64,000 nucleotides of DNA. Origin: Octopus vulgaris. Its lineage: Eukaryota. The position numbers and the translations under genes were made by a program. The DNA lies in contig OX597833.1 in assembly GCA_951406725.2 (NCBI GenBank), positions 14,446,001-14,510,000 of the forward strand, in the 5' to 3' direction. Within the stretch, counting starts at the first letter, position 1, and every line of letters starts with the position of its first letter. Shown one piece after another: positions 2,230 to 63,681 of this stretch. The notes below the pieces were generated by a model, which worked only from the letters and a program-made list of their open reading frames with translations, was not told where the DNA came from and did not search any database.

Positions 2230-2777
2230 GTGTATGTGTATACACATATATGTGTATTTATATACATGCATATAAACACACATACGTATATATATGTATA
2301 TATACGAACGCGCAATGTTAATTTCATCTTGTTTTTAAATCCACATATATATATATAAGTATGCATGTATGCATACATACACAGCTACACGTACTCACAC
2401 GCATGCACGCTCACACAGACAAAGTCATACACACACACACACATCAACTCATACGAACTCGGAATGTTCATTCCATATTGTTTATAAATACATATACAGG
2501 GGTGAACAAAATATTGGAAACACCTAGCAAAATAGCATCATGATTTTCAAATATCTATAAAACCGCCAAAAGCTTGTTTATTTTTATGTCTTTTTATCTA
2601 TTATTAATGTAAAGTATAGAAGCCATCTTATCATGGCTAACCACATTGGGGAGGGGTTGTTACTTTAGCTTTATAGCCCCAAGAGATCTTCGTCTCTAGC
2701 TGGCTTTAGACACAATATCAGTGTCCTTGGAGTATTTGCAAAGGGAGGCCATCCCTTCCACGCAAGCCTGAGTGATA

Positions 2778-2820
2778 CGCTCGAACTAGTTTCGGGATTG
2801 TTGTCCCTCGTCAACGGGCG
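2778..2820 (-). ncRNA. Minimal type I hammerhead ribozyme motif (U3.G8 core)
   Basis: Minus strand: CGCCCG-TTGACGA-GGGA caacaa TCCC-GAAA-CTAG-TT-CGAGCG; stem II perfect, stem III palindrome ACTAGT. Confidence 0.7.
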
Positions 2821-3014
2821 GTAACCACCAGGTAGCGATGAAAGTGAAGGCTCCTTTGCAAATAGATATAAGTTTTTCTAATGGCGTCTGCCACTGATGT
2901 CAATTATTTAATTATGCTTACTGTTCGTTTTTCGACATCAGTGGCAGACGCCATTAGAAAAACTTATATATATTTGCAAAGGAGCCTTCACTTTCATCGC
3001 TACCTGGTGGTTAC

Positions 3015-3057
3015 CGCCCGTTGACGAGGGACAACCATTCCGAAACTAGTTCGAGCG
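3015..3057 (+). ncRNA. Minimal type I hammerhead ribozyme motif (U3.G8 core)
   Basis: CGCCCG-TTGACGA-GGGA caacca TTCC-GAAA-CTAG-TT-CGAGCG. Confidence 0.7.
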
Positions 3058-3810
3058 TATCACTCAGGCTTGCGAGGAAGGGATGGCCTCCCTTTGCAAA
3101 TACTCCAAAGACACAGATATTGTGTTTAGAGCCAGCTAGAGACGAAGATCTCTTGGGGCTATAAAGCTACAGTAACAACCCCCTCTCCAATGTGGTTAGC
3201 CATGATAAGATGGCTTCTATACTTTACATTATCGAGCGATTACTGTTTCAATCTCATTCTGAGATTTAATTATGCTATTTATTATTAGTGTTGCTTAAAA
3301 TGTTTAGCTAAAATTGCTGTTTCTTTTCAGATATCATCAGAAAAAGGTAATTAAAATTCATTAAAATGACAAATCTATCAGACTTTCAAACGGCTCAAAT
3401 TGTTGGTGGTCATATGGTAGTCACCAGCGTACATAGTGAATGGTGCATAGTTGCAAAACACACATACATACACAGACAGACATGCACACACAAGGAGACA
3501 GAGTTGCATACATATACAAACACACGCTAACACACACATACATAGAAAATACAAAAACACAGACATGTAAGCACATGAATATGCAGGATACATACATACA
3601 GATGTACACACATACATACATATATACATATGCACACACACACATATATATACATACATACACATGCATGCATACATACATACATACATACATACACACA
3701 TACATACGTACATGCATGCATGCATTCATAGGCACACACAGATACACGCACACACCGACCTACACATGCGCACAAACAAACACAAAGGAACGCAGTGTAA
3801 ATAACAGATA

Positions 3811-3935
3811 GAGTCAAGACTATTGAAAAGTTTGCAATGAAAATTTTAGGAAAATGAAAATAAAAAGAAACCATTGGAAATTTCACCGGTGAGTGTGTTA
3901 CATTATAAGGCACAAAAAGAAAATGACTCTCCCCA
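3811..3935 (+). mobile_element. Short copy of the HHR element family at 63352-63681 (HHR stem II deleted)
   Basis: GAGTCAAGACTATTGAAAAG...GACTCTCCCCA matches 63483-63611; followed by (TA)n. Confidence 0.8.
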
Positions 3936-7169: not shown

Positions 7170-7213
7170 ATTATAACATGTTTCAGTTCCTGAAATGAAC
7201 CTTATCAAAAAAA
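7170..7213 (-). ncRNA. Hammerhead-like motif, U3:A8 core, in a ~280-bp insert between (TA)n tracts (7109-7390)
   Basis: Minus strand: TTGATAA-GGTTC atttcag GAACT-GAAA-CATG-TT; stem III palindrome ACATGT; stem I weak. Confidence 0.5.
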
Positions 7214-9251: not shown

Positions 9252-9607
9252 TTTACGGAGATGTACTTGCATAGCAAGTGACCTGATCTGAGATTGTGTA
9301 CTGGAACGAAAACAATTGCAGCCTGGAAGGTGTTTATAAGCCATTTAATAAACTCACAAAAACCGTTAGATTGACTTGAGCATTTAAATTTAATTTGCCA
9401 AAATATTTTCGCCGCTTTGAAACCGCGACCTGTTCACTTACATAATTCCATCCGCTCTGCATTGCACGGAATTTTGCCAGTGAATAGATCACGGTCTCAA
9501 AGTGACGAAAATATTTTGGCAAATTAAATTTAAATGTTGAAGTGAATCTAACAGCTTTTGTGTGTTTCTTAAATGGCTTATAAACACCTTCCACGCTGCA
9601 ATTGTTT
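9252..9607. mobile_element. PLE-like fold-back insertion with G3:C8-type HHR
   Basis: Inverted arms about 9311-9439 / 9479-9607 plus a ~59-nt tail 9252-9310. HHR on - at 9394-9439 (GTGAACA-G-GTCGC..GCGGC-GAAA-ATAT-TT-TGGCAAA) and on + at 9473-9523. Second copy at 54838-55066. Confidence 0.75.
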
Positions 9608-22550: not shown

Positions 22551-23842
22551 CGAGGGACGTTCAATAAGTAATGCCCCTGACCCACTTGCAGTTGTTTGAT
22601 TTAGCTGAAATTTTGCATGTGCAATTATTTATATCTCTATAGATTAAGTGACAAATTACAGCTCTGCATTAATTGTGGTTTCCGATTTACAGGCGTTTGA
22701 ACTGAGTCAAGTGTGAAATGGAGCCTTTTGAGTGTCGAGCAGTGATCCGGTTTTTGTATTTGAAAGGACGCACACCACGGGAGACTTTTGATGAAATGAA
22801 AGTAACTTATGCTGATGATGCCCCTTCACATGACCTTGTAAAACGCTGGCATCGTGAATTCAAACATGGTCGGAACTCTGTGGAAACAGCTCCCAAATCT
22901 GGTCGCCCCCTTCTGCCATTGATGAGGCATCTGTCCGTCAATTTGAGGCTGCCATTTTGGAAGATCGACGCATAACTATTCGCCAAATACCCCATGAGGT
23001 CAAGAGTAGGACCGGGTCTGTGGAAACTATCATTCATGACCATTTGCATGTGCAAAAGGTGTCTGCCAGATGGATTCCCAGTTTGCTCACACCTTTCCAG
23101 AAGCAAGAACGCGTCGAGTGCTCGAGGATGAATTTGGAGATGTGCCAAGAAGATGAGTCAAAATTTTTCAAAAGACTGATTACACAGGATGAAATCTGGG
23201 TCCATCACTATGATCCAGAGATCAAAGCCCAGTCAATGCAGTGGAAGCACCGTGACTCACCCCCTCTAAAGAAGTCAAGGGTGCAGCCCTCCGCTGGCAA
23301 GGTCATGCTCACAGTCTTCTGGGACCAGGATGGAGTAGTAATGACAGATTTCCTGGCAAAGGGTACCACAATTACAGGAGCCTATTATGCTTCACTTCTG
23401 AGGAAATTAAGAGAAGCTATCAAAATCAAGAGGCGGAGCAAGATCAACAAAGGCATCCTCCTCCTGCAGGACAACGCTCCGGTCCACAACTCGCGTGTCG
23501 CCAGATCAGAAGCACAGGGGTGCGGCTATGAACTCATCCCCCATCCCCCTTACTCTCCTGACTCTGCACCCTCTGATTTTCACCTCTTTCCAGCCATGAA
23601 GTTGTTTTTGAAAGGAAAGCGTTTCCCAAATGATGCAGCATTGATTACTGAAGTCACGTCGTGGTTGGAGGACCAAGCTGGGGTCTTCTACAAAAATGGT
23701 CTCCAGAGCTGCATCAAACGATGGTAGAAATGCGTAACTCTAGATGGTTCCTATGTAGAAAAAGACTAATAACTGTGCCAAGTTTCGTTGCTCTACTGCT
23801 ATGGGAAGTGGGTCAGGGGCATTACTTATTGAACGCCCCTCG
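22551..23842 (+). mobile_element. Full-length mariner transposon (1292 bp)
   Basis: 37-bp TIRs CGAGGG(A/G)CGTTCAATAAGTAATGCCCCTGACCCACTT (22551-22587 / 23806-23842, one mismatch); TA on both sides. Confidence 0.97.
22718..23769 (+). pseudogene. Mariner DD34D transposase, disabled
   Basis: N-terminal HTH region (RAVIRFLYLKG...KSGRP), SARWIP, TQDE, QDNA and YSPDSAPSD with 34 residues between D2 and D3. Frameshift near 22905-22912; premature TAG at 23725-23727 before KCVTLDGSYVEKD*. Confidence 0.95.
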
Positions 23843-41462: not shown

Positions 41463-41749
41463 GATGATTCTGTGTGGGTGTGTGGATAATGGTATGTAGT
41501 GTAGGGGCTGAGAAGTGGTCGGTACTAGTGAGTGGGGAATGGGAAAGTGTTGTGGGAAGGTGTGGAAAGGTGTTGTGGGTGTGTGGGTAATGGTGTATGA
41601 AGTGGTAGATGAGCTGAAAAGTGTGTATGGGTGGTTGCATAGTGGTGCATGTTTAGTGAGGATACCGAAGTAGGCGGTATACAGATGCGTACGTGGAGGG
41701 GACAGTTGAATGTGAGATGTGTGTGAGAATCCGTGTGGGGTTGGTGTCA

Positions 41750-42500
41750 GATGAAGAGAGGAAGTGATTTGAGTTCATGTTGCGCCAGGGGTGAAGAGAG
41801 AAGATTAGTAACTGTTCACGGTGAAGGCGGGAGTCTGGGTGGCACCTATGCAGAGACAGTACCAACCCGGACAAATGTTGTAGCAAATGATCAATATCGC
41901 ATAAGGGGAGCGAGACCAGAGTGTCATTGCCAAGTCTTATATCTCGGAGGTGTTCCGTGAAACGGTCAGCTAAGGGCAGAACAGCAGAAGGAGCAGGAGT
42001 TGCAGTAAATAACCTTGCTAGAAGTGAATGTAAAGGAATTGATGATATGATAGGGCAATGATGGGTTCCTATGAGTATGGTGCTGTTTGGAGAGGTACGG
42101 GTAAGTGCGTCAGCGTGGGCGGGAGCAGGGAAACGACACAGGTTGGGAGGTGGGCTTAGGAAAGAAACTATGGCCCAAGATGTCATGCAGGTATTGGGCG
42201 CATTTGAAGGAGGGAAGGGGTATGTTGGGGAGGATGTGCGAGGTGTACGGGTCGGATTGGAGTCGCTGGAAGGGTCGGTGAACGGTGTGGTGGGTGAGGG
42301 GAAACGGGAGACTGGTACGGGGAAAAAGAGCAGACGAACGGTTCACAGACTGTACCCGAACAAGGGAATGTTGATAATAGTGGGTGGGAGGATATGCACG
42401 AAGGATGAAGTGGCGAGCCGGGAGTTGAGACTGAGTCTCAAAATCATTGTCCTCACTGCAGAGGATGGAGTGCTTCTTGTGGGAAGGTTGGGAGGATGAG
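41750..42500 (-). pseudogene. Decayed Penelope-like element (Neptune-type) ORF: RT C-terminal region, Cys linker, GIY-YIG endonuclease
   Basis: Frameshifted minus-strand peptides in order: LCSEDNDFETQSQLPARHFILRAYP; RLQSDPYTSHILPNIPLPSFK..LHDILGHS; FPCSRPR*RT; FTFTSSKVIYCNSCSFC; LADRFTEHLRDIR; RLHREQLLIFSL. Confidence 0.85.
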
Positions 42501-42528
42501 AAGTTAAGGTAGCAATATATATATTAGT

Positions 42529-42737
42529 ATGTGACCTCGTCTGTATCACTAGCGATTTTTTCCCCTGTTTTCCCCTCTCGGGATCTTTCCTTCTCCTATG
42601 TTTCCGACGAAGAGCTCCGCTCGAAACGTCAAACCCACCTTCTTCCCTTCTTTCCTGAGCGTCCAATAATACCTTATTTGTTCCACGTCCTTGCGTCGTT
42701 CTTTTTTTGTTTTTGTTTTCTTGTTTGGATTAACTTT
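42529..42737 (+). mobile_element. Family D copy 2 (HHR 42600-42634), inverted relative to and abutting the PLE ORF 5' end
   Basis: GTTT-CCGACGA-A-GAGC tcc GCTC-GAAA-CG-TC-AAAC. Confidence 0.8.
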
Positions 42738-46346: not shown

Positions 46347-46565
46347 AAAGTTAATCCAAACATGAAAATAAAAAGAGAAAACAAAACGCGAGGACGTGGA
46401 ACAAATATAGTATTATTGGACGCTCAGGAAGGAAGGGAAGATAGGGGGGGGGGGGTTAACGTTTCGAGCGGAGCTCTTCGTCAGAAACATAGGAAAAGGA
46501 AAGATCCAATGAAGACAAGACGGAGAAAAAAATTGCCAACGGTACACACGCGGTCACATTTTGAA
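46347..46565 (-). mobile_element. Family D copy 3 (HHR 46455-46488)
   Basis: Minus strand GTTT-CTGACGA-A-GAGC tcc GCTC-GAAA-CG-TT-AAC; (TA)n on both sides. Confidence 0.85.
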
Positions 46566-49261: not shown

Positions 49262-49604
49262 TATCAAATGAAATAAATGAAAAACAGGACACAAAGGATG
49301 TTGCAGTACACATGTTTCGAGCTTTATAAGACAACTTATTCTTACATCAATGTATAATCGACATAACAGATGGTTTAAAGCTCTCTTCAGCCGCATGCAA
49401 TTTGGTATTATAGATAATACGAAATGTTCCTTTTCGGACTTTTGATAATGTGATACAGGTCTTTGGTATAGTAATTGCATGCGGCTGAAAAAAGCTTTAA
49501 ACCATCTGTTATGTCGATTATACATTGATGTAGGAATAAGTTGTTTTATAAAGCTTGAAACACGTGTACCGCGACATCCTTTGTGTTCTGTTTTTTATTT
49601 CATT

Positions 49605-50592: not shown

Positions 50593-50766
50593 TTAGCTAC
50601 TACACGTATTTTTTCTCTCCTTGTTTTTTTCTGTGTATCTTTCTGTCGAAGAGCGTAGGCTCGAAACGTAAAAGACTTTTTCTATTCCTGAACGCTATAC
50701 TAATACATTTGTTTGTTTGTACTCCACCTGCCTTCGTCGTTTGTTTATTTTCGTAAAGTTTCCCTT

Positions 50767-51889: not shown

Positions 51890-52115
51890 CTTTATTTTAA
51901 GCAGCAGAAAATTCAACAAAATCTGTTACTCTGAGTTTCTCGTTGCCGTTCATCAGACAGTTTTTAGCAAAAACTGTCTGATGAACGGCAACGAGAAACT
52001 CAGAGTAACAGATTTTGTTGAATTTTCTGCTGCTTAAAATAAAGCATATTACTCTACCACTGGTATTTGAGTAGTCTTTTTTCCACCTTGTTTCACATTT
52101 ATGTGTTTACTCCGG
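51890..52115. mobile_element. PLE-like fold-back insertion with canonical-core HHRs (- 51923-51960, + 51974-52011)
   Basis: Perfect 76-bp arms 51890-51965 / 51969-52044, spacer AGC, ~70-nt tail; CTGT-CTGATGA-aCG gcaa CGa-GAAA-CTCAGAG-TA-ACAG. Confidence 0.85.
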
Positions 52116-52441: not shown

Positions 52442-53745
52442 AGGGTAAATAATATCTTTAATGGTTTTTAAAAAACCAACAATTATTTACTGGTAGAATT
52501 CGGTATGTAAATATAACCAATGAACGGTAGGAACTTCTGTAAGTTCAGTATATATATATTGTATATAAATAAAAGGGGCAGGCAACAGGTTGCTTGGCCG
52601 CATACTGAAAAATTAGAAATAGCAGTCAAGACTGTTTATTTCTACTTTCTACAAATGGGACTCCACATACGACATATCCCTGTAATTCACATATGCAAAA
52701 CAGAAGGAATAAATAACGAAAACGAAGTCTGGCGGTCATTTGCGAACATGTTTCTAGATTAGAAATATATTGAATATATATTTCATATATATTACAAATA
52801 TATTTCATATCTTTCATCAGCGCAACTCTCCATTAAAATAGATTTATCAAATGCTACGTACCTCGAACTTTCTGACCATGCAACATCAAAAGAGTTGAAG
52901 AAAGTGAGCATAGGCTAAACCTAAATAGACAGTTGAATTCGTAAATTTTCCCTCCAAAATTTTACCATGCGCATTACAAAAATAGTTCCTTAGAGGTAGA
53001 AACTATGGGTTGTCGTAAGGGAGGGAAAATTCCAATTAGTAATATAATAATAAGGGTAAATAATATCTTTAATGGTTTTTAAAAAAACCAACAATTATTT
53101 ACTGGTAGAATTCGGTATGTAAATATAACCAATTAACGGTAGGAACTTCTGTAAGTTCAGTATATATATCTTTATATATAAAAGTCAAGTTGTGTGTCTG
53201 TCTCCTACGACTTAGATTCCTAACTACTCCCACATTTTGCGGTGCAGTTTAACCAAAACCGGGTATCTTATAGTCGTGATTCATATCGAGCCCTTCTGGC
53301 TATTAGCGCGCGTCTACGATGAGTCTACGATTAAAAAAAAAATTACCATAATTTTTTTTTCCATTTTAATGCATTTTTTCGCTATTATATAAGGGAAGTA
53401 ACTCTCTAAAAGTGTCTACGATGAGTCAACGATTTAAAAAAAAATTTACCATCATTTCTTTTCCACTTTTAATGCATTTTTTTGCTATTTTTTGGCTATA
53501 ACTCTCTAAAAATGCTTATATAGTTATTTCCCTTACAAACCCGAGCAACGCCGGGTGATACTGCTAGTATTGTATATAAATAAAAGGGGCAGGCAACAGG
53601 TTGCTTGACCGCATACCGAAAAATTAGAAATAGCAGTCAAGACTGTTTATTTCTATTTTCTACAAATGGGACTCCACAGACGACATATTCCTGTAATTTT
53701 TCGGTATGCGGCCAAGCAACCTGTTGCCTGCCCCTTTAATATATA
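52438..53745 (-). mobile_element. PLE-like partial-tandem element (610-bp period) with short terminal inversion and HHR 52740-52825
   Basis: 52438-52687 repeated at 53048-53697 (Helitron-interrupted); inverted piece about 53696-53745. Minus strand: TTGCG-CTGATGA-aAGAT..AT-rich loop..ATCTa-GAAA-CATG-TT-CGCAA. Confidence 0.8.
53169..53567 (+). mobile_element. Helitron H2 with its empty site visible in the paralogous repeat
   Basis: Empty site CAGTATATATATATTGT (52546-52562) versus filled CAGTATATATA|TC...CTAG|TATTGT; no TSD. Confidence 0.9.
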
Positions 53746-54837: not shown

Positions 54838-55063
54838 TTTACGGAGATGTACTTGCATAGCAAGTGATTTGATCTGAGATCGTGTGCTGAGATGCAGCAC
54901 GGATTTTTGTCAATGAACAGGTCGCGGTCTAATAGCGACGAAAATATTTTGACAAATTATAGCGACGAAATATTTTGACAAATTAAACTTAAATGTTGAA
55001 GCGAATCGAACGGCTTTTGTGTGTTTCTTAAATGGCTTACAAACACCTTCCACGCTGCAATTG

Positions 55064-55066
<3 letters not shown>
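54838..55066. mobile_element. Second copy of the 9252-9607 family (HHR + 54906-54956)
   Basis: TTTGTCA-ATGAACA-G-GTCGC ggtctaata GCGAC-GAAA-ATAT-TT-TGACAAA; same left and right ends as the 9.3-kb copy. Confidence 0.75.
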
Positions 55067-56635: not shown

Positions 56636-57968
56636 TTTTTTTCATTTTATTTAGTTTCAGCCCACAAGCTGTGGCCATGCTGGGGCACCGCCATTTGGTG
56701 TTGCTACATGATTTTATTTCACGAATGCTTTTTAGCAAATGCCATCTGGTGCATGAGAGAGTTCGATGCAGCTGCCCTCATCTGCACCTCCAGCCGTGAA
56801 GTTGGTTCATCTGGGACACCTGACAAGAAGAAATCCAGTTTCATTTTAAAGACATCTGCATCCACCCCATGCAGGTCTCTTAGGTTATTCGGGAGGATAT
56901 TGAAGAGCTGTGGGCCTCGGAAGGCCGAGGCTATCACAGTATCTTGTCCTACATCTTGATGGCAAATTTGGAGTCCTTGGCACTATGCAGTGGCACCTAG
57001 TTCTGGCATTTGTGTAACTCTCGATGCCAAAGTTTGGGACAAGTCCTTCTAGGATCTTCCAGATGTATATTATGGCATATCTTTCTCGCCTACGCCCTAA
57101 GGAATAGAGTCTCAATCTCTTGAGTCTTTCCCAGTAGCTTATATGCTGCACAGAGGCTATCTTCTTCGTGTAGCTTCGTTGGATTGCTTTAAGTTCTATG
57201 ATTAACTTGACACTGGATGGTGACCATAGCTGAGAGCAATAGTGAAAGTCGCTGAGGACAAGTGTCCTCCAGAGGACCACCATGGTTTCCTGGTCTCTTG
57301 TTCTAAAGGTTCTAAGAATCCATCCGGTCAGTCGCCTACATTTCATTGCCAATTTAGCAACATGCACATGAAAGGTTGCATCATCACTCATGTAAATACA
57401 CAGGTCTCGCACTGATTGTGCCTCTGGGATTGCAATCCCTCCAGGTCCAGTGTATTTATTGGGTATTGCATTTAGTTTTGCATGCTGATAGCTTGAAACT
57501 TTTCAGCATTGAACTGCAGGCTATTCTTTTCATCCCACTTTTATATTTTGTCTAGCTCACAATGCAGCTGCTTAGTGTGTTCAGGGTTCTGTATTGCTTG
57601 TGAAACTTTTGTATCATCTGCATAACTTGTGATCGTGGCTCTCTGCATGGCTGAGGGCATGTCTATATATATATATATAGATAGATAGATATATATGCAT
57701 ATATATATATATGCATATATGCATATATGTATATATATATATATGCATATATTTGTGTGCGGCGTGTGTCTGTTTTTGTCTCACTGCCATCGCTTGACAG
57801 CCGATGCTAGTGCATTGACGTCCCAGTAAATTAGCGGTTCGGCAACAGGGACCGATAGAATAAGTACTAGGCCTACAAAGAGTATGTCTTGAGGTCACTT
57901 CCTTCGACTAAAATCACTGAAGGCGGTGCTCCTGAATGGCCGTAATCAAATGAGTGAAACAAATAAAA

Positions 57969-58010: not shown

Positions 58011-58186
58011 TCCTGCGTCTTCCCTTCTTCTGGATCTTTCCGTTTCCTATGTTTCCGACGAAGAGCTCCGCTCGAAACGTAAAACCCTCCTTCTTCCCAT
58101 CCTTCCTGAGCGTCCAATAATACTATATTTGTTCCACGTCCTTGCGTTGTGTTTTCTCTTTGTGTTTTCATGTTTGGATTAACTTT
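58011..58186 (+). mobile_element. Family D copy 4 (HHR 58051-58085)
   Basis: GTTT-CCGACGA-A-GAGC tcc GCTC-GAAA-CG-TA-AAAC; (TA)n flanks. Confidence 0.8.
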
Positions 58187-59990: not shown

Positions 59991-60785
59991 ATTGGCAGGG
60001 CAAGACTGCTAGGTAGTCGGCCGTATGCTAGAAATAGATCATCAACGATCAAGCTACAAAGAAACACCAGAACCAAATTTGGTGGGCAGGACAGATGAAA
60101 ATTTATATAAAAAACAGAATTAATTGCATACCTCGGTTTCGGCCTTTAACAAAAGAATTACTTACATAATTCAAATGTCCGTGGCTTCATCAGTGCTATC
60201 GTTCAGTTTAAATGCAATCTGAAAAAACTAACCCCAGCTTTCTGTGCCAAGACAGACACGTGCTTAGTTTTACCGATTACATTAGGGATAACATTTCAAA
60301 TGTCTTGGTTCCGGCGCGCTAAGAAATTCCTGAAGCGAAGAACTGCAGTAAATAATTCACTGCGGTTAGTGCTTGCTACTAGAGAACGTATTTATTTCAA
60401 TATTTAAAGCTGGGGTTAGATTTTCAGATTGCATTTACACTGAACGATTGCACTGATGAAGCCACGGACATTTGAATTATGTAAGTAATTCTTTTGTTAA
60501 AGGCCGAAACCGAGGTATGCAATTAATTCTGTTTTTTATATAAATTTTCATCTGTCCTGCCCGCCAAATTTGGTTCTGGTGTTCGCTGAACTTTTCCTCT
60601 AGAGAACTTTCTTTGTAGTTTGATCGTTGATGATCTATTTCTAGCATACGGCCGACTACCTAGCAGTCTGCCCTGCCAATATACACATATATTAGAATTT
60701 TCTCTGACTTCTCAGATTTTTTGTATGCTAGACTACTGGTTTTAAATTGATATTAAAATTAATATTAATTTATCTCCCTCATTAT

Positions 60786-60787: not shown

Positions 60788-60820
<33 letters not shown>

Positions 60821-60909
60821 ATATATATGGATGAAAAGGAACACACGAGTTGGTATATATGAAAAAACAAGTCAGGATAGAAAATGCTAAAATAATTTTA
60901 AAAAGAACA

Positions 60910-60952
60910 TTTCAGTACCGGTTTCAGTCATTTGAGACATTTTCAACTGTAA
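60910..60952 (-). ncRNA. Minimal hammerhead motif, U3:A8 core
   Basis: Minus strand TTACAG-TTGAAAA-tGTC tcaaat GACt-GAAA-CCGG-TA-CTGAAA; stem III palindrome ACCGGT; insert abuts (TA)n at about 60828. Confidence 0.65.
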
Positions 60953-61558
60953 CAATTAAAAAAATTAAATTTAGAAAAATTAAAAGAAAAGTTTTTTTAA
61001 AAAGAATATTTGTATAGTGTTCAAATATAAGTGGCATTTTCCTTGTTTCTGCCTTTCTCTGTCTCTCTTGTTTACACTTGTGGGTTCGAGGTCGTTGTGA
61101 ATTCTTGGTAGGGAAGAAGAAGAAGAAGAAGAAGAAGAAGAAGAAGAAGAAGAAGAAGGAGGAGGAGGTGTAGTCAAATCCTATGTTCTAAAATAAGTCG
61201 AAAGGTAAGCTGCTATAAATCGGCACGAACTTTCCGGACAACCCAATAGATTCAAGATAACCTGACAAATGAGACACGTGTGTATATATTTGTCTAAATA
61301 CATCGTTTAACTGGATATTACTCTCCTGTCAGTATGCATCTGATATCAAATAACTTTATCAGTATATATTTACTGCGATATAAAACTTGATTATTTCCTT
61401 AAATTTCCTGTTCGAGATTTGTATATCATGCACAAAAATGGCTCAAAATCTCATATTTCCCATCTAAGTTCTCAGACTTCATGCACTACTGTGACAGTGT
61501 TATTAGTAAGTGTTTATAACTACAAATCTTTAGCACTGTGAGAAACATAGCAGCTTAC

Positions 61559-61629
<71 letters not shown>

Positions 61630-61641
61630 CCTATCAATCTG

Positions 61642-61672
<31 letters not shown>

Positions 61673-61675
61673 CTA

Positions 61676-61721
<46 letters not shown>

Positions 61722-61758
61722 CCTACCAACCTACCTACCTACCTACCTACCTACCTAC

Positions 61759-61815
<57 letters not shown>

Positions 61816-61837
61816 AGTCTATCTATCTATGTATCCT

Positions 61838-62932
61838 TTTACTCTTTTATTCTTTTACTTGTTTCAGTCATTCGACTGCGGCCATGCTGGAGCACCGCCT
61901 TTAGTCGAGCAAATCGATCTTAGGACTTATTCTTTGTAAGCCTAGTACTTATTTATTGCTCTCTTTTGCCGAACCGCTAAGTTACGGAGACGTAAACATA
62001 CCAAGCGATGTTGGGGGAAAAATACAGATACACAAACATATACACACATACATATATATATATATATATACATACATACGACGGGCTTCTTTCAGTTTCC
62101 GTCAACCAAATCCACTCACAAGGCTTTGGTCGGTCCGTGGCTATAGTAGAAGACACTTGCCGAAGGTGCCACGCAGTGGGACCGAACCCAGAACCACGTG
62201 GTTGGCAAGCAAGCTTATTTGTAATTTAATTTTCGATTCCATTATAATATTGATTTTAGGGATTCTGTTGTATTCGCAAAATCCTTTGTCCTTTACAAAA
62301 TCTTTCAATAGTAGAGAAACCTCCACTTTTTTCCGGATATATCCCTGGCTTTTCTGCCATCGACTATAGAAATATTAAAATACGGATGCGACTATCAGCA
62401 TTTTTTTTCTATTATCGAAGGCACCACATGATTGTATAACTATATATCCTTGATCGTTAATCCATGGATATATTCAATGTTTATTTTAAATATACCCTAT
62501 GTATATTTAATGTATATTTTAAATATACCCAGACAAAGGAGTGGCTGTGTGGTAAGTAGCTTGCTTGCCTACCAGATGGTTCCGGGTTCAGATCCAACGC
62601 GTGGCACTTTGACCAAGTGTCTTGTACTATAGCCTCGGGCCGACCAAAGCCTTGTGAGTAGATTTGGTGGACAGAAACCGTAAGGAGCCTGTCGTGTATA
62701 TGTATATATATGTGAGTGTTTGTGTGTCTGTGTATGTCCCCCCAACATCGCTTGACAAACGATGCTGGTGTGTTCATGACCCCCGTAACGTGTGCGTCCC
62801 CGTAACGTAGCAGTTCGGCAAAAGAGACCGATAGTACTAGGCTTACAAAGAATAAGTCATGGGGTCGATTTGCTCTACTAAAGGCGGTGCTCCAGCATGG
62901 TCGCAGTCAAATGACTGAAACAAGTAAAAGAG
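61838..62932. mobile_element. SINE A on - (61838-62216) and on + (62535-62932)
   Basis: Matches to other copies. Confidence 0.88.
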
Positions 62933-63351
62933 TATGTATTTATTTCCAATATATGGATTTATGAACGCAACGAGATGTTTTTAGATTCTGTCTTCAAATT
63001 TCGTTGAGGTCGACTTTTCATTTTACTCTTTCGGTGCCTGTAAAATATATACACGATTGACATAATCGCCTTACTCTTTACTCCTAAAGAAATTGCTGGA
63101 CGTGTGCCAAAATTTGAAATCAAATATATAAATTCATTATATTTTCAAGTTCCTTTAATTAGCTGTCTGTACATATCATTGCAGTATCGCTGTAATTCTA
63201 ATTTCATTCAGATTTCGTCTGTTAACACGTCTTCAAATATTTTGACAAAAACAATATTATGTGAGAAATATATTACAAGAAATGTATCATTCCTGTAATT
63301 AATATTACCTGCTTATTCAGTTTACAAATCGCATTTGCTATGATAATTTTG

Positions 63352-63681
63352 TTGTGTCTGGGGAGAGTCATTTTCTTTTTGTACCTTATAATGTAACACA
63401 CTCACCGGTGAAATTTCCACTTATTTCTTATTTTTATTTTCCTAAAATTTTCGTTGTGTCTTGCAACCTTTTCAATAGTCTTGAGTCAAGACTATTGAAA
63501 AGGTTGCAAGACGCAACAAAAAATTTAGGAATATATAAAAAAGAAATAAATGGAAATTTCACCGGTGAGTGTGTTACATTATAAGGCACAAAAAGAAAAT
63601 GACTCTCCCCAGACACAACAGAATATGCTTCAACACACGAACTCATATAAAGAATCTTACAAGTCAAATCTAAAAACGAAT
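63352..63681. mobile_element. PLE-like fold-back insertion with U3:A8 HHRs (- 63442-63478, + 63492-63528)
   Basis: Arms 63350-63484 / 63486-63620, 1-nt spacer, 61-nt tail, 13-bp TSD TATGATAATTTTG (63339-63351 / 63682-63694). Consensus of arms: CTA-TTGAAAA-G-GTTGC aagac GCAAC-GAAA-AT-TT-TAG. Confidence 0.8.

What the first reader, a model, noticed from the sequence alone, without database searches (positions are those of the whole stretch)
60910..63528. Three unrelated families use a U3:A8 core, giving cross-family covariation of the 3:8 pair
Seen: TTGAAAA at 63495-63501 (also its mirror and 3823-3829), TTGAAAA on - at 60940-60946, and TTGATAA on - at 7202-7208. Each is followed by a different stem II, GAAA, a different palindromic stem III (AATT, ACCGGT, ACATGT) and UH. 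With C3:G8 (49.3, 51.9, 52.8, 60.4 kb, family D), G3:C8 (9.4 kb) and U3.G8 (3.0 kb), four pairing states occur in one window while G5 and A9 stay fixed. Inference: this is a signature of selection for catalysis in the source elements rather than random decay.
Basis: partly seen in the sequence, partly recalled or inferred. Interest (0 to 1): 0.75.

Follow-up and report, generated by a model that had tools for sequence, protein, structure and literature searches.

The report
Penelope hammerheads swap their core pair
These are end-pieces of Penelope-type jumping genes whose predicted self-cutting RNA motif has swapped one core base pair (a swap already published), and across families in this genome the two letters nearly always still pair, which likely reflects selection on the motif, though cutting is untested.

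Summary
The three UUGANAA cores are real and are the state of three Penelope-like element (PLE) families, not decay. Each lies downstream of a GIY-YIG frame, with RT in two; family C is young, with intact ORFs and terminal repeats. Corrections: the 63495 arm has lost G12. Families B and C are sisters (endonucleases 60% identical), so U3:A8 has at most two origins here, not three. New here: a young A3:U8 family nested in the U3:A8 clade, which completes all four Watson-Crick states in one genome, and a very abundant young family with A6U. U3:A8 in PLE hammerheads is published (Perreault 2011; Cervera 2014), and this scan noted U3:A8, G3:C8 and A3:U8 earlier on other DNA. Cleavage is untested, and inserted copies run uncut through the site. 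Verdict: a known kind with a modest new variant panel.

The parts
63352..63482 (-). Family A PLE 3' end, left arm of a fold-back palindrome; hammerhead core U3:A8 at 63469-63475 with intact GAAA, stem III AAUU, U17
   Evidence: co-linear copy L341 has a 665-aa RT+GIY-YIG frame about 670 nt upstream
63488..63622 (+). Family A right arm; core U3:A8 at 63495-63501 but G12 changed to A (predicted dead)
3539..3935 (+). Second family A copy with CA-rich 3' UTR; core at 3823-3829, stem II partly deleted
60788..61168 (-). Family B PLE 3' end; core U3:A8 at 60940-60946, stem III ACCGGU, A17; this copy has U10.1 where the family has G
   Evidence: linked GIY-YIG 735-1240 nt upstream in L044/L115, L048/L116 and L124
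7091..7389 (-). Family C PLE pseudo-LTR end, followed by (TA)n; core U3:A8 at 7202-7208, stem III ACAUGU, U17
2597..3229 (.). Inverted pair of a young family whose consensus core is U3.G8 (2808-2814 minus, 3021-3027 plus)
   Evidence: (26 of 27 matches in 20 loci)
9309..9607 (.). Inverted pair of the G3:C8 family (9431-9437 minus G3:C8; 9480-9486 plus, decayed to G3.U8)
54885..55065 (+). Further copy of the G3:C8 family, decayed to A3xC8 at 54913-54919
49384..49491 (.). Cores of an inverted pair: C3:G8 on minus (49384-49390), C3xA8 mismatch on plus (49485-49491)
51950..51984 (.). Cores of an inverted pair, both C3:G8
52814..52820 (-). C3:G8 core
60187..60459 (.). Cores of an inverted pair, both C3:G8, long loop II
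50643..50649 (+). Core with A6U and C3:G8, of the kind found in the very abundant young PLE family
42604..42610 (+). Core with U4C and C3:G8 (second copy at 58055-58061)

Best explanation
The three motifs are minimal type-I hammerheads at the 3' ends of three Penelope-like retrotransposon families, and their U3:A8 pair is the family state, likely kept paired by selection for a weakly self-cleaving fold in the active source elements. Shown: the family states, the link to PLE protein frames, the excess of pairing across families, and mismatches in individual copies. Inferred: two copies of the motif in a tandem transcript pair through the palindromic stem III, probably with help from the element's protein, and cut after H17 slowly or late. 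Genomic copies then decay freely. The pair has moved between states along lineages: likely C:G to U.G to U:A by transitions, and U:A to A:U once, inside the B/C clade.
For: Family states: A 52 copies, U3 96%, A8 85%; B 42 copies, 98%/95%; C (with sibling subfamilies) 61 copies, 100%/100%. PLE identity: C ORF2 is 781 aa with RVT_1 and GIY-YIG; repeats carrying the motif flank the ORFs in L100 (250 nt, 99.6%) and L097 (995 nt, 97.4%); 16 of 148 GIY-YIG matches lie in a 781-aa open frame; 40 of 40 scored hits are 100% identical over 101 nt. Pairing: 21 of 24 families Watson-Crick against 10.5 expected; collapsed 5 of 8 (p 0.018) and 7 of 10 (p 0.004). Copies in 1.30 Mb taken without regard to the motif (window included): C:G families 71 C:G, 9 mismatches (6 CxA), 2 U.G, 1 gap, no compensated change. 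A3:U8 family: 19 of 23 matches ATGAATA, U8 in 23 of 23, endonuclease 56% identical to C and nested with U3:A8 families; this needs two transversions. The G3:C8 consensus came back (29 of 33) although the query carried A3. In a lizard PLE hammerhead, C3G and G8C each abolish cleavage and the double change partly restores it (PMC11167929, passages).
Against: No cleavage shown. Copies end 60-130 nt past the predicted cut and their 5' ends do not pile up there, so the templates were uncut; the lizard study found cleavage dispensable for insertion in vitro and no RNA-seq ends at the site. Family A has a 3-bp stem I that does not form in a constrained fold, and a stem III self-duplex of +2.2 kcal/mol. 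The most abundant young family found (14,946 candidates) has A6U in 19 of 19 matched loci; a natural A6C variant cleaves below 0.1 per min (PMC3088659 section 8). U4C is the majority state in another family (15 of 28). One accepted cluster is UxU (it also lacks A9 and is probably a false positive). 12 of the 24 families rest on 4 loci or fewer, and several larger ones were fetched on purpose.
Confidence: 0.68

Rival explanations
1. The fold, including the 3:8 pair, is kept as a structural element (protein binding, dimerisation of tandem transcripts, placing reverse transcription), and cutting is negligible.
For: Templates are uncut; A6U and U4C families thrive; many families have U17; family A is weakly folded; hammerhead mutants did not affect insertion in vitro in the lizard PLE.
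Against: G5 is kept in 24 of 24 families, A9 in 23 of 24, and H17 is never G in the modal state, though the last was part of my descriptor. The 3:8 pair belongs to the active conformation (PMC3884650, passages), so a non-catalytic scaffold has little reason to keep it.
Confidence: 0.2
2. There is no selection on the pair: U3:A8 is AT-biased drift (C to T, G to A) fixed in one or two ancestors and inherited, and the table only looks covariant because families are related.
For: B and C are sisters (60% over 94 aligned residues); at least three U3:A8 families fall in one clade; U.G consensuses exist as one-step states; the genome is AT-rich.
Against: Drift should fix one-step mismatches such as CxA, the commonest change in copies (6 of 83), yet no family consensus has one. 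G3:C8 and A3:U8 each need two transversions. The collapsed tests remain significant.
Confidence: 0.1
3. The motifs are chance matches or decay products of canonical C3:G8 copies.
For: The AT-rich window yields about 1.4 loose matches per shuffle; 57 of 81 multi-copy clusters were rejected as not hammerheads.
Against: Family-wide constancy of U3 and A8, including a family with 100%-identical copies, and a fixed position behind PLE endonuclease frames.
Confidence: 0.02

Closest known systems
Minimal type-I hammerheads in metazoan PLE terminal repeats (Cervera and De la Pena 2014, PMC4209133; parts 1-2 of 4 read, supplements not opened)
   Same: Position in pseudo-LTRs, short stem I, palindromic stem III for dimer folding, extra base between 9 and 10.1 in some families, many sequence families per genome, opposite-strand pairs. 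The paper reports the U3-A8 core in Schistosoma PLEs, about 1,300 hits.
   Different: That text names only U3-A8. Here G3:C8, A3:U8 and U3.G8 are also family states, as are A6U and U4C.
Natural hammerhead core variants (Perreault et al. 2011, PMC3088659; passages and section 8 read)
   Same: C3-G8 covaries to U3-A8 in nature; A6C is tolerated with low activity.
   Different: A general survey, not an analysis of PLE families; no G3:C8 or A3:U8 is named in the section read.
PAc Poseidon PLE hammerhead (Frangieh et al. 2024, PMC11167929; passages read)
   Same: PLE hammerhead near the end of the element; unprocessed RNA is the insertion template; an engineered G3/C8 swap partly rescues cleavage.
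   Different: Canonical C3:G8 in nature and a Penelope/Poseidon-clade element; the families here carry a CX4CX2C linker motif.
Short-stem-III PLE hammerheads that cleave as dimers (Lunse et al., RNA Biol 14:1499; only the citation and a review's summary seen; paper not held)
   Same: Palindromic short stem III, PLE association, dimer cleavage.
   Different: Could not check whether it already lists A3:U8, G3:C8 or A6U.

Membership tests
Penelope-like element (EN+) | ORF with RT and C-terminal GIY-YIG endonuclease | tested here: met
   C: RVT_1 E 1.2e-6 (28.8 bits, just under cut-off) and GIY-YIG over cut-off. A: GIY-YIG over cut-off in L342, RVT_1 weak (E 0.008) in L341. B: endonuclease co-linear upstream, RT seen only in inverted pieces.
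Penelope-like element (EN+) | Pseudo-LTR: 3' end repeated in front of the ORF | tested here: met
   Family C: L100 and L097. Not seen for A or B in the loci held.
Penelope-like element (EN+) | 5' truncation with adjacent inverted copy | tested here: met
   Window palindrome 63352-63622; inverted upstream copies in L111 and L114, L036 and L051.
Penelope-like element (EN+) | Insertion into (TA)n | tested here: met
   Most family C copies end in a TA run.
Neptune or Nematis clade | CX2-5CXXC linker before the endonuclease and placement with reference RTs | tested here: inconclusive
   CX4CX2C is present in A, B, C and relatives; no reference PLE proteins were at hand, so the clade is not assigned.
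Minimal type-I hammerhead | Core N3 U4 G5 A6 N7 N8 A9 with a paired 3:8 | tested here: met
   for A, B and C.
Minimal type-I hammerhead | G12 A13 A14 A15.1, palindromic stem III, U16.1 H17 | tested here: met
   Met in the consensus of B and C (98%) and A (56% of copies; the query lacked G12); not met in the 63495 arm.
Minimal type-I hammerhead | Stems I and II close the junction | tested here: inconclusive
   Stem II forms in A, B and C. Stem I forms in B; only its distal part forms in C; it does not form in A.
Minimal type-I hammerhead | Match to an Rfam hammerhead model | tested here: not met
   0 matches at gathering thresholds in the window; this held for the window's canonical C3:G8 copies too.
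Minimal type-I hammerhead | Self-cleavage after H17, as a dimer | not testable with these tools
   Needs an assay or raw RNA reads.

The most novel reading that the evidence does not exclude
One animal genome hosts young PLE families whose hammerheads use all four Watson-Crick pairs plus the U.G wobble at 3:8, with a natural A3:U8 core arisen inside a U3:A8 clade and a dominant family living with A6U. All are active protein-assisted ribozymes tuned to low rates, giving a natural mutational series to test what PLE hammerheads are for.
Probability: 0.35. Interest if true: 0.55.

Novelty: new variant of a known kind. Interest (0 to 1): 0.36.

Why it matters
The role of hammerheads in Penelope elements is open: they are widespread in canonical PLEs, yet cleavage was dispensable for insertion in vitro and Naiad elements were reported to lack canonical motifs (PMC11167929, PMC8557442; passages). 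Family-level retention of the 3:8 pair through repeated swaps is comparative evidence that the active conformation is under selection in vivo. The young A3:U8, G3:C8, U3.G8 and A6U families are ready-made natural variants for one set of cleavage and transposition assays. The U3:A8 swap itself adds nothing to the published record.

Tried and rejected
Rfam scan: no match. A strict descriptor gave only 19 hits in 840 kb and lost most window copies, so it was replaced by clustering. RNA evidence: no RNA holder is on record, and all 24 listed runs are contigs. Laying 4+4 runs on family C showed no other letter at positions 3 or 8, no usable ends and no splice-like joint; contigs cannot show cleavage. 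The test for copies starting at the cut site found no pile-up in 8 families. Nucleotide comparison of the A, B and C hammerhead regions found only short matches (best E 0.006), so relatedness rests on the proteins. The endonuclease tree (about 150 aa, 11 rows) does not place family A reliably (long branch, support 63). Two endonucleases in it (L231, L252) had no recognisable hammerhead within 1.6 kb downstream. Twenty further GIY-YIG loci could not be obtained, so the tree covers only 9 motif-linked rows. Not held: Lunse et al., Przybilski and Hammann 2007, Nelson and Uhlenbeck 2008; rates for A3:U8 and U3.G8 constructs are therefore not cited. Literature searches for natural A3-U8, G3-C8 or A6U hammerheads and for octopus + Penelope + hammerhead listed no report of a natural case; only titles, abstract starts and term counts were seen for most hits. 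Supplements of PMC4209133 and PMC8557442 were not opened and may list such variants.

Full report
Observation. The cores are at the stated places. A descriptor that leaves positions 3, 7 and 8 free finds 13 matches in the window against 1.4 in shuffles, and 4 against 0.05 with stem I required. Two details are wrong or missing. The 63495 arm has lost G12, so only its mirror (63469-63475, minus) is complete. The window also holds non-pairing copies: C3xA8 at 49485 and A3xC8 at 54913. Rfam has no match.

What the repeats are. The window lies in a 2.8-Gb animal genome; that it is an octopus is my recalled impression, not a tool result. Family C (7.2 kb): 40 of 40 scored hits are identical over 101 nt, of 904 candidates. 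Longer copies carry ORF1 and a 781-aa ORF2 with RT and GIY-YIG, flanked by direct repeats that contain the motif, and end in (TA)n. 16 of 148 GIY-YIG matches lie in a 781-aa open frame. Family B (60.9 kb; 959 candidates) lies 735-1240 nt behind a related endonuclease in three independent loci. Family A (63.5 and 3.8 kb; 884 candidates) lies about 670 nt behind a 665-aa RT+GIY-YIG frame in L341, and similarly in L342. All three are Penelope-like elements. The window's palindromes match the inverted truncated copies described for this class (PMC8557442, passages).

Is U3:A8 the family state? Yes. After removing 27 overlapping loci: A 52 copies (U3 96%, A8 85%), B 42 (98%, 95%), C with siblings 61 (100%, 100%). 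Most of these copies were fetched with a U3:A8 query and are biased toward it. The copies in stretches taken without regard to the motif (window included) agree: 11 U:A and 2 U.G for the three families.

Are they unrelated? Not all. Endonuclease identity is 60% for B-C over 94 residues, but 19-27% for A against all others. C is 28% and 36% identical to two C3:G8 families. Over RT and EN, C aligns with a C3:G8 family across 625 aa (E 7e-72) but only in patches with A (best E 1e-8). So the three families give at most two origins of U3:A8.

I scanned all loci held (about 2.0 Mb, of which 1.30 Mb were taken at even steps or beside the window, or are the window itself). Positions 3 and 8 were free and one of U4, G5, A6, A9 could differ. 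A cluster was accepted if its consensus had GAAA and three of those four letters, and if at least 30% of its copies, in two or more loci, passed on their own. 24 of 81 multi-copy clusters passed: C:G 13, U:A 6, U.G 2, G:C 1, A:U 1, UxU 1. That is 21 Watson-Crick against 10.5 expected, reached by 0 of 200,000 permutations. The UxU cluster also lacks A9 and is probably false, but it is kept in the count. Collapsing relatives gives 5 of 8 (p 0.018) or 7 of 10 (p 0.004). Individual copies behave differently: among 83 copies of C:G families in the 1.30 Mb, 9 are mismatched (6 CxA), 2 are U.G and none is compensated. Mutation therefore supplies mismatches that do not become family states. Limits: the unbiased part is 0.05% of the genome, 12 families rest on 4 loci or fewer, and the A6U and U4C groups merged into one cluster.

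Beyond the finding. The 3.0-kb U3.G8 core is a true state of a young family (26 of 27 matches). G3:C8 is the state of the 9.4/54.9-kb family (29 of 33, found with an A3 query). A young family outside the window has A3:U8 (19 of 23; 1,279 candidates). Its endonuclease is 56% identical to C's and groups with a U3:A8 family (support 75, inside a clade with support 85). This double transversion is the best single piece of covariation found. A U3.G8 family is sister to a C3:G8 family, which fits a wobble stepping stone (each linked to its endonuclease by one locus in the tree). But A6U marks the most abundant young family met (14,946 candidates; 19 of 19 matched loci among 20), and U4C is the majority state in another (15 of 28).

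Mechanism. Shown: position, family states, excess pairing. From the literature: such motifs are thought to fold as dimers through the palindrome and cleave weakly (PMC4209133, parts 1-2; review PMC6765202, passages). In a lizard PLE the 3:8 pair is required, a swap partly rescues, protein is needed, and uncut RNA is the insertion template (PMC11167929, passages). My data fit the last point: copies run 60-130 nt past the predicted cut and do not start at it. Predicted stem III self-duplexes are -8.3 (B), -4.6 (C) and +2.2 kcal/mol (A), and A's stem I does not form, so A is the weakest candidate ribozyme. I put 0.68 on selection for a cleavage-competent fold, 0.2 on a structural role, 0.1 on drift plus shared descent, and 0.02 on chance.

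Novelty. Natural U3-A8 was reported in 2011 (PMC3088659) and in PLE hammerheads in 2014 (about 1,300 hits). My searches listed no natural A3:U8, G3:C8 or A6U case, but the most relevant survey was not held. Earlier notes of this scan mention U3-A8 and G3-C8 in this genome and A3-U8 in another; these are unchecked notes and are not counted as support. Verdict: real, of a known kind, with a useful natural variant panel; interest 0.36.

Noticed in passing
L321-L340; window 50643-50649 (+): Very abundant young PLE family (150 scored hits at 98-100% identity; open frames up to about 1,200 aa) whose hammerhead core has A6U with C3:G8; N7 varies among related copies in the unbiased sample.
   Followed up: partly
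window 42604-42610 and 58055-58061 (+), 46478-46484 (-): Family with majority U4C core; the U4 copies could be CpG decay of C4 rather than the ancestral state.
   Followed up: partly
L261-L280, L251:2050: Young A3:U8 family with a 2-bp stem II and 4-bp stem I, about 280-300 nt behind its endonuclease; a relative at L115:1074 has G3/A3 with U8.
   Followed up: yes
window 60940-60990 (-) and 54880-54913 (+): In family B a pyrimidine-rich tract and an AG end directly before U3; in the G3:C8 family the AG includes G3. This resembles the intron end at helix I described for Drosophila Penelope; splicing was not shown.
   Followed up: no
L305, L317: Short tandem repeats of the 5' half of the G3:C8 hammerhead region (about 64 nt) next to inverted junctions.
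   Followed up: no
L231, L233, L246, L252: Endonucleases of the B/C clade with no recognisable hammerhead within 1.6 kb downstream.
   Followed up: partly
window 22858-23727 (+): Mariner-type transposase fragment (recalled motif); an intact-looking 354-aa frame of the same kind is in L043.
   Followed up: no
window 41653-42523 (-) and 56885-57502 (-): Broken PLE ORF2 fragment of the A6U-family type, and a LINE reverse-transcriptase C-terminal fragment (label recalled).
   Followed up: no
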